Source of the DNA: the human T2T-CHM13v2.0 reference genome, Homo sapiens | Assembly (NCBI RefSeq): GCF_009914755.1 | Contig: NC_060941.1 | DNA: 64,000 nt | Reading direction: 5' to 3' (one strand) | Shown here: positions 62,334 through 62,693 of the stretch, in pieces | How positions within the stretch are numbered: the first letter of the stretch is position 1 | Layout of the letters: each line of letters starts with the position of its first letter | Made by a program: the position numbers and the translations under genes | Notes under the pieces: model-generated | The model's input: only the letters and a program-made list of their open reading frames with translations | Told to the model about the DNA's origin: nothing | Databases searched by the model: none

Positions 62334-62693
62334 TCAGGCAAGCTGTAAATGGATATAGGTAAAGATGCAGGAGGTGATGGAGAAGGCGATGGCTGCGTAG
62401 ATGAAGATGGAGAGGTGCGGAAAATGGTCGAGATAGCAGCCCTCGTCCAGTGGAGGCGCCTCCTTCTTGGGCGGGGGGCGCGATGCGGCCTTCGGGGGCT
62501 GCCCGGCGCGGCCCCCCTGCGCCCTCCCGCCCGCGCGCCGACCAGCCTTCTTGCCCGCGGCCGACGCCGACCTGGGCCCGCGGGCAGCGGGAGGGTCTTC
62601 CGGGGGAGGCTTGTCAAACAGGCCTTCGGACTCGGGGTCCGGGCGAATCTGCTCGAGACCCCAGGGTCTGCGCCGAAACAGCCCGTTAGCCAT
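62334..62693 (-). CDS. Putative 119-aa tail-anchored membrane microprotein (LOC728392 region)
   Basis: cccATGG start; [11 protein letters not shown]...; C-terminal hydrophobic helix [26 protein letters not shown]. Confidence 0.6.

What the first reader, a model, noticed from the sequence alone, without database searches (positions are those of the whole stretch)
62334..62693. Candidate 119-aa tail-anchored microprotein in the LOC728392 CpG island
Seen: an AUG with G at +4 opens a 119-codon ORF. It has a disordered Pro/Gly/Arg-rich N-terminus and an abrupt hydrophobic helix running to the stop. That composition is not expected from a chance GC-rich frame and matches tail-anchored (GET/TRC40 or EMC client) topology. 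Recall/inference: mouse has a similarly sized brain/tanycyte ER protein (6330403K07Rik/UGS148) between Mis12 and Nlrp1, so this may be its under-annotated human orthologue.
Basis: partly seen in the sequence, partly recalled or inferred. Interest (0 to 1): 0.8.

Follow-up and report, generated by a model that had tools for sequence, protein, structure and literature searches.

The report
Known tail-anchored ER protein gene SMIM48
The 119-codon frame is a real, mammal-wide gene for a small membrane protein anchored in the endoplasmic reticulum by its tail, but it is already annotated in humans and its mouse counterpart has been described, so the finding is correct rather than new.

Summary
The ORF exists exactly as described: window 62334-62693, minus strand, ATG to TGA, 119 aa. 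Its length alone means little. 656 of 2000 shuffles of exon 1 give an ORF this long, and an antisense 120-aa ORF overlaps it. The hydrophobic tail next to the stop is not chance: 0 of 2000 shuffles, and 1 of 41 ORFs of 80 aa or more in the window.

Fifty-four related proteins were found, and all the named ones are placental mammals. Residues 83-119 are 98% identical across 50 sequences, against 67% for residues 1-82. The gene is single-copy in its own genome. AlphaFold gives one confident helix, residues 92-118, and disorder elsewhere.

RefSeq already annotates this CDS (NM_001162371.3, hub table). Databases call the family SMIM48. The mouse orthologue 6330403K07Rik/UGS148/Tanmp is published as a brain and tanycyte ER protein with a cytosolic disordered N-terminus and a lumenal QLA tail.

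Side observations: repeat-like DNA in the TM-coding part, an intron in the 3'UTR, and fast-evolving, duplicated copies in gophers and kangaroo rats.

The parts
62744..63100 (-). CpG-island promoter upstream of the annotated start at 62743, with GC boxes (CCGCCC-type) at about 62744-62796
   Evidence: sequence; 62300-63100: GC 0.69, CpG o/e 0.76, 72 CpG; the TSS comes from the hub table
62694..62743 (-). 5'UTR, 50 nt, without any ATG
   Evidence: exon limits from the hub table
62334..62693 (-). Coding sequence, 119 codons plus TGA (LOC728392 = SMIM48/TANMP)
   Evidence: 54 homologues; identical to the RefSeq CDS in the hub table
62415..62693 (-). Residues 1-93: disordered cytosolic part, rich in Pro/Ala/Gly/Arg, with acidic then basic blocks
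   Evidence: composition, net charge +6; no secondary structure, pLDDT 48-60; 67% mean identity for residues 1-82
62598..62639 (-). Residues 19-32: the one well-conserved island of the N-terminal part (D19, S22, invariant L25 and F26, D27, P30, E32); a candidate short linear motif in an acidic setting
   Evidence: invariant and nearly invariant columns
62415..62447 (-). Residues 83-93: juxtamembrane segment [11 protein letters not shown], invariant from C86 to H93 in 50 sequences
62346..62414 (-). Residues 94-116: transmembrane helix (tail anchor). The coding DNA resembles a hexamer/dodecamer repeat.
   Evidence: KD19 1.98; codon-position GC 0.31/0.39/0.77 over codons 94-119; helix 92-118, pLDDT 78-91; period 12; 67% match to (TCCATC)n
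62334..62345 (-). Lumenal tripeptide QLA and the TGA stop
   Evidence: the same tripeptide is described for mouse Tanmp
61768..62333 (-). 3'UTR, exon-1 part (566 nt); it contains the start of the weakly conserved downstream ORF modelled as LOC124900388
   Evidence: hub table
61688..61767 (-). 80-nt intron inside the 3'UTR (G|GTAAGT ... pyrimidine tract ... TAG|)
   Evidence: sequence at the annotated exon limits
61165..61687 (-). 3'UTR, exon 2, with AATAAA at 61187-61192, 22 nt before the annotated 3' end
   Evidence: hub table

Best explanation
The ORF is the coding sequence of a genuine, single-copy gene found across placental mammals: LOC728392, called SMIM48 in databases and Tanmp/6330403K07Rik/UGS148 in mouse. 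It encodes a 12.8-kDa tail-anchored ER membrane protein.

The first AUG of a short CpG-island transcript is translated. Residues 1-93 are disordered and face the cytosol. Residues 94-116 form the only transmembrane helix, and three residues (QLA) reach the ER lumen.

The helix ends 3 residues before the stop. It is therefore still inside the ribosome when translation ends, so insertion must be post-translational (inferred). The helix is only moderately hydrophobic, with 9 polar residues out of 23, so I lean towards EMC, or mixed EMC and TRC40 use (inferred, untested).

The functional core is most likely the nearly invariant 37-residue C-terminal module, made of the juxtamembrane [11 protein letters not shown] and the helix. 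It is conserved on all faces, which suggests tight packing against itself or a membrane partner. The variable N-terminus would act as a flexible cytosolic arm that carries one conserved short motif (S-E-G-L-F-D).

Shown: the ORF, its architecture, its conservation, and the mouse protein, its ER location and its topology. Inferred: insertion route, partner binding and cellular role.
For: The ORF and its first-AUG status are.

The C-terminal hydrophobic window has KD19 1.98, was seen in 0 of 2000 shuffles, and occurs in 1 of 41 long ORFs of the window.

There is a coding signature in the tail. Codon positions 1 and 2 have GC 0.31 and 0.39, while position 3 keeps the island's 0.77.

54 proteins match at E<=0.01 among 125 candidates, at 46-92% identity. 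All named ones are placental, spanning primates, rodents, lagomorphs, Laurasiatheria, Afrotheria and Xenarthra. 50 of the 54 have the complete tail-anchor end.

In the 50-sequence alignment, 25 columns are invariant and 23 of them lie in C86-L116. Identity is 98.4% for residues 83-119 against 67% for residues 1-82.

Only one locus matches in the window's own genome, out of 89 candidates scored.

AlphaFold2 with the alignment gives a single helix at 92-118 (pLDDT 78-91) and nothing else.

The splice sites and the poly(A) signal are canonical at the annotated limits.

Published mouse data (preprint 10.1101/2021.07.06.451253; sections 5-8, 10 and 22 read): a 13-kDa band with a monoclonal antibody that is absent in knockout; brain-specific expression, highest in tanycytes; co-localisation with calreticulin and BiP; and an N-terminal tag reachable after digitonin while a C-terminal tag is reachable only after Triton.

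The human transcript is listed as a marker of VTA dopamine neurons in a review table.
Against: ORF length alone is not evidence in this GC-rich DNA: 656 of 2000 shuffles reach it, and there is an antisense 120-aa ORF.

The start context has C at -3.

I found no paper showing the human protein itself. Searches were used, and most of the 32 LOC728392 papers were seen only as a listing.

I could not obtain orthologous DNA, so no dN/dS or PhyloCSF test was run. Conservation is judged from annotated proteins only, which favours intact ORFs.

Several related records are aberrant. P0050 (Neofelis) has a different start and a truncated end. P0054 (Ursus americanus), P0059, P0061 and P0065 read like frameshifts within or before the helix. 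These could be assembly errors or real decay.

In Dipodomys and Thomomys the helix is not conserved.

The intron 566 nt after the stop is the layout expected of an NMD target (the rule is recalled).

Mouse knockouts show no overt phenotype (abstract; discussion).

Polar residues of the helix do not cluster on one face (R 0.27; 3747 of 10000 shuffles do as well), so there is no simple sign of an interaction surface.
Confidence: 0.93

Rival explanations
1. The frame is a chance ORF in a GC-rich CpG island, and the transcript acts as a non-coding RNA or is promoter-associated noise.
For: Long ORFs are common in this composition: 656 of 2000 shuffles, and an antisense 120-aa ORF exists. The start has a non-purine at -3. 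The mouse gene was handled as an intergenic ncRNA in PMC7671363 (passage). The mouse transcript gave strong nuclear signals with one probe, later shown to cross-react.
Against: The tail hydrophobicity appears in none of 2000 shuffles. Residues 83-119 are 98% identical across placental orders, with conserved start, stop and length. The codon-position GC pattern looks coding. The mouse protein was detected with a knockout control.
Confidence: 0.02
2. The protein is real, but its working site is the mitochondrion or ER-mitochondria contacts, where it binds ATP synthase, rather than the bulk ER.
For: [quoted passage not shown] The authors discuss a contact-site role.
Against: Imaging showed ER signal, not mitochondrial signal, in HeLa cells and mostly so in tanycytes. 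[quoted passage not shown] The segment after the helix (QLA) carries no basic residues, which mitochondrial tail anchors usually have (that rule is recalled).
Confidence: 0.1
3. The product that matters is another reading of the same transcript: either the downstream ORF modelled as LOC124900388, or a spliced isoform that lacks the helix.
For: RefSeq carries a predicted model for the downstream ORF on the same exons (hub table). TM-less isoforms are predicted in Macaca, Dasypus and other species. They share the N-terminus and then switch frame or exon.
Against: The exon-1 part of the downstream ORF finds only 3 proteins: the human cluster and two unnamed ones at 56-62% identity. The main ORF finds 54. 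The downstream ORF lies behind the first AUG and a 119-codon ORF. The isoforms are computer predictions, and they drop exactly the part of the protein that is best conserved.
Confidence: 0.03

Closest known systems
Mouse Tanmp (6330403K07Rik / UGS148), preprint 10.1101/2021.07.06.451253; Ma et al. 2015 (seen only in that preprint's reference list)
   Same: It is the orthologue. Rodent relatives match full-length at 69-73% identity. Both have the same C-terminal helix and QLA end, a similar mass (12.8 versus 13 kDa), and NLRP1 as a neighbour (hub table). The gene spans are nearly equal, 1579 versus 1573 bp (hub table).
   Different: The human protein is 119 aa, not 121, because it lacks two residues near position 18. 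Human localisation, topology and protein expression have not been shown in anything I read.
Tail-anchored ER proteins as a class (clients of TRC40/GET and EMC; PMC5788257, passages read)
   Same: There is a single helix at the extreme C-terminus, no signal sequence, and a cytosolic N-terminus.
   Different: This is a class defined by topology and insertion route, not by descent. The insertion route of this protein is untested. Its helix is far more conserved than a mere anchor would need.
Small ER/SR membrane regulators such as phospholamban, sarcolipin and related micropeptides (recalled, not fetched)
   Same: They may work alike: short single-pass ER proteins whose conserved helix is the active part and binds a larger membrane protein.
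   Different: The Pfam scan at E up to 10 listed only two unrelated weak matches. No partner is known. This protein has a much longer disordered cytosolic arm.
Junctophilin C-terminal region
   Same: The language-model feature search put JPH2 fragments next after the protein's own cluster (scores 0.80 and 0.78). Junctophilins also join a disordered region to a C-terminal ER anchor (recalled).
   Different: Scores under 0.9 are leads only, according to the tool. No sequence homology was found in any search.

Membership tests
SMIM48 / Tanmp orthologue group | Full-length sequence similarity to the mouse-lineage protein | tested here: met
   P0030 (Apodemus cluster, 21 members) at 73% and P0043 (named '6330403K07Rik protein' by UniRef) at 69%, both covering 100% of the query. 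Hits are named SMIM48 in Microcebus and Macaca; the protein's own Atlas cluster is named 'Small integral membrane protein 48'.
SMIM48 / Tanmp orthologue group | C-terminal helix followed by the tripeptide QLA | tested here: met
   Described for mouse. Present in 50 of 54 hits, with small variants of the last residues.
SMIM48 / Tanmp orthologue group | Conserved position next to NLRP1 and MIS12; single copy | tested here: met
   Human order MIS12 - LOC728392 - NLRP1 comes from the hub table. Mouse 6330403K07Rik is at chr11:71,031,941-71,033,513 and Nlrp1a at 71,092,236. The Mis12 side in mouse was not checked. One locus matches in the window's own genome.
SMIM48 / Tanmp orthologue group | Brain/tanycyte expression and ER localisation of the human protein | not testable with these tools
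   The only evidence is a review table listing LOC728392 among human VTA dopamine-neuron genes.
Tail-anchored membrane proteins | One transmembrane helix close enough to the C-terminus to stay in the ribosome until termination | tested here: met
   The helix is at 92-118 of 119, with a KD19 peak at 96-114.
Tail-anchored membrane proteins | No signal peptide or other hydrophobic segment | tested here: met
   The highest KD19 outside the last 30 residues is -0.9.
Tail-anchored membrane proteins | N-terminus in the cytosol, C-terminus across the membrane | not testable with these tools
   Shown for mouse Tanmp by the digitonin/Triton test. Not done for the human protein.
Tail-anchored membrane proteins | Post-translational insertion by TRC40/GET or EMC | not testable with these tools
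   No experiment was found. PMC5788257 gives the rule that high hydrophobicity goes with TRC40 and moderate or low with EMC. Its scale (fig. S1) was not visible to me.
Any Pfam family | Score above the curated cut-off | tested here: not met
   the best matches are DUF6620 at 9.8 bits (cut-off 27) and FoP_duplication at 10.4 bits (cut-off 24.6).

The most novel reading that the evidence does not exclude
The gene may be an invention of placental mammals whose membrane helix was born from a simple repeat. The helix-coding 69 nt still match a perfect (TCCATC)n / (TCTCCA)n array at 67%, with Ile (ATC) at every fourth codon. RepeatMasker flags the same stretch in mouse. After birth, the helix and its juxtamembrane segment were frozen (98% identity) because they dock onto a partner in the ER membrane that is still unknown. 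In gophers and kangaroo rats this constraint was lost or changed after duplication.
Probability: 0.2. Interest if true: 0.45.

Novelty: already known. Interest (0 to 1): 0.15.

Why it matters
As a discovery it adds little, because the CDS is in RefSeq and the mouse protein's location and topology are described.

It remains a protein with no known function. It is very strongly conserved in its membrane part. It is expressed in tanycytes, orexin neurons (mouse) and human VTA dopamine neurons. It sits in a human BMI association region (rs1000940 region list).

The near-invariance of the helix, together with the lack of phenotype in knockout mice, marks it as a candidate regulator of some ER membrane machine under conditions not yet tested.

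Tried and rejected
1. Pfam, PDB sequence profile (best E 0.51, an amidohydrolase) and Rfam on 60500-64000 (0 matches) gave nothing.

2. A profile search of 1.84 billion representatives gave only 15 hits at E<=0.001. The divergent full-length ones looked like possible non-placental relatives. They turned out to be Thomomys bottae and Dipodomys, so nothing outside placentals was found. This may only reflect what is annotated as protein. I could not search marsupial or other vertebrate DNA.

3. I tested for a polar face on the helix and found none.

4. Complex prediction on two copies of residues 78-119 returned no verdict: score 0.09 against a mark of 0.32, controls not run, alignment not used. 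It says nothing for or against self-association. The only hint of multimers is the SDS-resistant bands.

5. The ESM Atlas search on residues 80-119, restricted to named clusters, gave no usable hit.

7. I considered FFAT, LIR, EVH1 and AP-2 type motifs for the S-E-G-L-F-D island by eye, from recalled consensus patterns. None fits, so I name no partner.

8. I could not make a numerical comparison of helix hydrophobicity with known TRC40 or EMC clients. That would need comparator sequences I may not type from memory, and the supplement with the scale was not visible.

9. dN/dS and PhyloCSF were not possible, because no mammalian orthologous DNA is reachable with these tools.

Full report
**The observation**

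The minus strand of window 62334-62693 carries an ATG-to-TGA frame of 119 codons.

Residues 1-93 are rich in Pro (17), Ala (13), Gly (12) and Arg (11), and carry a net charge of +6. The Kyte-Doolittle 19-residue mean is -0.9 or lower outside the last 30 residues and peaks at 1.98 over residues 96-114. Three residues, QLA, follow the hydrophobic stretch. The ORF lies in a CpG island: 62300-63100 has GC 0.69 and CpG observed/expected 0.76.

**Is it more than chance?**

ORF length is not. In 2000 dinucleotide-preserving shuffles of exon 1 (61768-62743), 656 held an ATG ORF of 119 aa or more. The real sequence also has an antisense 120-aa ORF at 62349-62711.

The hydrophobic tail is. None of the 2000 shuffles gave an ORF of 100 aa or more with a C-terminal window of 1.9 or above. 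Of the 41 ATG ORFs of 80 aa or more in all six frames of the 64-kb window, only this one has a hydrophobic window within six residues of its stop. Shuffling evens out local composition, so this null is rough.

A second, independent sign comes from the tail codons (94-119). GC is 0.31 and 0.39 at codon positions 1 and 2, but 0.77 at position 3. The rest of the ORF has 0.76, 0.63 and 0.80. The third position keeps the island's composition while the first two follow the amino acids, as expected of translated sequence.

**Relatives**

A word-seeded HMMER search of 5.8 billion proteins returned 54 proteins at E<=0.01 among 125 candidates. Every hit with a name is a placental mammal: primates, rodents, lagomorphs, cetartiodactyls, carnivores, bats, eulipotyphlans, a rhinoceros, Afrotheria and an armadillo. 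Identities run from 46 to 92%, and most lengths are 113-123 aa. Names given by sources include 'SMIM48' (Microcebus, Macaca) and '6330403K07Rik protein' (the cluster led by Phodopus).

By my count on the stored sequences, 51 of the 54 carry the juxtamembrane motif. 50 of the 54 have the complete tail-anchor end: 48 end in H-L-Q/H-L-A/V/E and two end in variants. The four exceptions are P0050 (Neofelis: a different start, and an end truncated inside the helix), P0052 and P0053 (predicted isoforms without the helix) and P0054 (Ursus americanus, garbled around the helix).

I aligned 49 of the 54 with the window's protein. I left out P0034, which is N-terminally extended, and P0050 and P0052-P0054. 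Twenty-five columns are invariant: L25, F26, and 23 positions between C86 and L116. Mean identity to the human residue is 98.4% over residues 83-119, against 67% over 1-40 and 67% over 41-82.

The window's own genome has a single matching locus among 89 candidates scored.

**How far does the family reach?**

A profile of the alignment was scored against 1.84 billion representatives without a word index. It found 15 proteins at E<=0.001.

Three divergent full-length ones (P0058, P0064, P0066) looked like possible distant relatives. A further search named them and two more. They are Dipodomys spectabilis and D. ordii, and three adjacent loci on one contig of Thomomys bottae. They are therefore fast-evolving, and in the gopher duplicated, copies within geomyoid rodents.

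I built a tree of 30 rows that I chose: 29 of the 69 stored proteins plus the window's protein. The stems leading to the Thomomys and Dipodomys groups are 0.77 and 0.28, against a median tip length of 0.11. The bootstrap had not settled, and the root is for drawing only.

The remaining hits match only the N-terminal 29-79 residues. They read like alternative isoforms or frameshifted models.

Nothing outside placentals appeared. These are protein libraries, though, so an unannotated marsupial gene would be invisible. I had no access to non-placental vertebrate DNA.

**Structure**

AlphaFold2 with the 50-row alignment gave mean pLDDT 61 and pTM 0.27. The only element is one helix, residues 92-118, and the 10-residue block means covering 91-119 are 78, 91 and 82. 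The rest has no secondary structure, with pLDDT of 48-60.

No solved structure is related (best E 0.51), and no Pfam family reaches its cut-off.

The nine polar residues of the helix are not gathered on one face (resultant 0.27; 3747 of 10000 shuffles do as well). Conservation is all-round, not one-sided.

**The gene**

At the annotated exon limits the sequence shows G|GTAAGT at 61768/61767, and a pyrimidine tract followed by TAG| at 61688. This defines an 80-nt intron. AATAAA lies at 61187-61192, 22 nt before the annotated end.

The intron lies 566 nt after the stop codon. By the usual rule (recalled), that layout marks an mRNA for nonsense-mediated decay. I did not test this.

GC boxes lie just upstream of the start. 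An alternative NLRP1 3' end (63133, with ATTAAA at 63148-63153) lies 390 nt upstream on the same strand (and the hub table).

**What is already known**

The hub table shows RefSeq NM_001162371.3 with exactly this CDS.

I read the preprint 10.1101/2021.07.06.451253: outline, abstract, sections 5-8, 10 and 22, and passages. Figures and supplements were not visible. It renames mouse 6330403K07Rik/UGS148 as Tanmp and reports the following:

- A 13-kDa band with a monoclonal antibody, absent in knockout brain.
- Brain-specific mRNA and protein.
- Highest expression in tanycytes, plus orexin neurons.
- Overlap with calreticulin-GFP and BiP.
- One predicted transmembrane segment followed by the tripeptide QLA.
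- A disordered N-terminus.
- An N-terminal FLAG tag reachable after digitonin, while a C-terminal tag needed Triton.
[quoted passage not shown] - SDS-resistant multimers.
- Knockout mice without overt phenotype.

Ma et al. 2015, which named UGS148 as a tanycyte marker, I saw only as a reference.

The mouse gene lies at chr11:71,031,941-71,033,513, with Nlrp1a from 71,092,236 (PMC9616761, Table 2 passage). That matches the human neighbourhood and the nearly equal gene span.

A 2019 study still treated the mouse gene as an intergenic ncRNA (PMC7671363, passage).

The ESM Atlas holds the human sequence, in a cluster named 'Small integral membrane protein 48'. A 2026 preprint uses Smim48 as a mouse gene name but does not say what it was called before. 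The link between the names rests.

**How it most likely works**

Shown or directly read:
- A first-AUG ORF with one C-terminal helix and no other hydrophobic segment.
- Strong conservation across placental mammals.
- ER membrane location of the mouse protein, with its N-terminus in the cytosol.

Inferred:
- The helix ends three residues before the stop, so it cannot leave the ribosome before termination. Insertion must therefore be post-translational.
- PMC5788257 (passages) reports that TRC40 handles highly hydrophobic tail anchors and EMC handles those of moderate or low hydrophobicity, with Sec61beta at the overlap.
- With nine Ser/Thr/Tyr/Cys/His residues among its 23, this helix looks moderate, so I lean towards EMC or mixed use. 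I could not place it on that paper's scale.
- The invariance of [11 protein letters not shown] plus the helix is far beyond what an anchor needs. It points to specific packing, with itself or with a membrane partner.
- The juxtamembrane Cys and two His residues could serve acylation or metal binding. This is speculation.
- The variable arm keeps one island (D19, S22, L25, F26, D27, P30, E32) that looks like a short docking motif. I could not match it to a known one.

**An unexpected detail**

The 69 nt that encode the helix match a perfect (TCCATC)n or (TCTCCA)n array at 67%. Only 16 and 8 of 2000 codon-order shuffles do as well.

Self-identity at lags 6 and 12 is 0.54 and 0.53. That level is reached by 173 and 438 of 10000 codon-order shuffles, and by 24 and 25 of 10000 synonymous resamplings.

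Ile (always ATC) falls at residues 96, 98, 102, 106, 110 and 114, with five in one class modulo 4. Only 32 of 10000 residue shuffles reach that. Tandem Repeats Finder reports a period-12 array at 62364-62392. The preprint mentions a weak RepeatMasker match to (TCTCCA)n in the mouse cDNA, but only as a probe problem.

Two explanations are possible. The helix may descend from a simple repeat. Or an Ile stripe selected for packing, together with C-ending codons, may mimic one. The data here cannot separate them.

**Verdict**

The gene, its CDS, its orthology and its topology are already on record. Interest is low as a discovery. The residual value lies in the unknown function of an almost invariant membrane module, and in the side observations listed below.

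Noticed in passing
window 62346-62414 (-): The helix-coding DNA looks like a decayed hexamer/dodecamer repeat. It matches (TCCATC)n at 67%, TRF reports period 12 at 62364-62392, and Ile (ATC) sits at every fourth codon. The mouse preprint notes a weak (TCTCCA)n RepeatMasker hit.
   Followed up: partly
window 61688-61767 (-): An 80-nt canonical intron lies inside the 3'UTR, 566 nt after the stop codon. This is the layout expected of a natural NMD target (the rule is recalled).
   Followed up: no
window 61540-61687 and 61768-62060 (-): RefSeq's predicted LOC124900388 is a second ORF on the same two exons, downstream of the main CDS. Its exon-1 part finds only 3 proteins (the human cluster and two unnamed ones at 56-62%), against 54 for the main ORF. 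It is probably not a conserved coding region.
   Followed up: partly
window about 62571 (-); proteins P0052, P0053, P0060, P0062, P0063, P0067: Several species carry predicted isoforms that keep the first 28-62 residues and then switch frame or exon, losing the helix. The Macaca 'SMIM48 isoform X2' ends in the same frame as LOC124900388. A CAG|GTCGGC site in human at about 62571 sits where the Macaca isoform diverges.
   Followed up: partly
proteins P0058, P0069 (Dipodomys); P0064, P0066, P0068 (Thomomys bottae): In geomyoid rodents the family evolves fast and the helix, invariant elsewhere, has changed. The pocket gopher has three adjacent loci on one contig. The gopher gene models run on past the usual end.
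   Followed up: partly
proteins P0050 (Neofelis), P0054 (Ursus americanus), P0059, P0061, P0065: These records read like frameshifts or truncations within or before the helix. They could be assembly errors in GC-rich DNA or real decay in some lineages.
   Followed up: no
window 62349-62711 (+): An antisense ATG ORF of 120 aa overlaps almost the whole CDS. It is a reminder that ORF length carries no weight in this composition.
   Followed up: yes
window 63133-63153 (-): An alternative NLRP1 3' end, with ATTAAA at 63148-63153, lies only 390 nt upstream of the LOC728392 start on the same strand. Read-through from NLRP1 could therefore enter this promoter (hub table).
   Followed up: no
The real tryptic peptide is a 30-mer, residues 9-38. 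Only four tryptic peptides of 7-30 aa exist, and the C-terminal one is a 42-residue hydrophobic piece. This may explain thin proteomic evidence.
   Followed up: yes
whole locus: LOC728392 is listed among the genes of the BMI association region rs1000940 (PMC5897035 table). Given the tanycyte and orexin-neuron expression in mouse, it is a plausible but untested candidate there.
   Followed up: no
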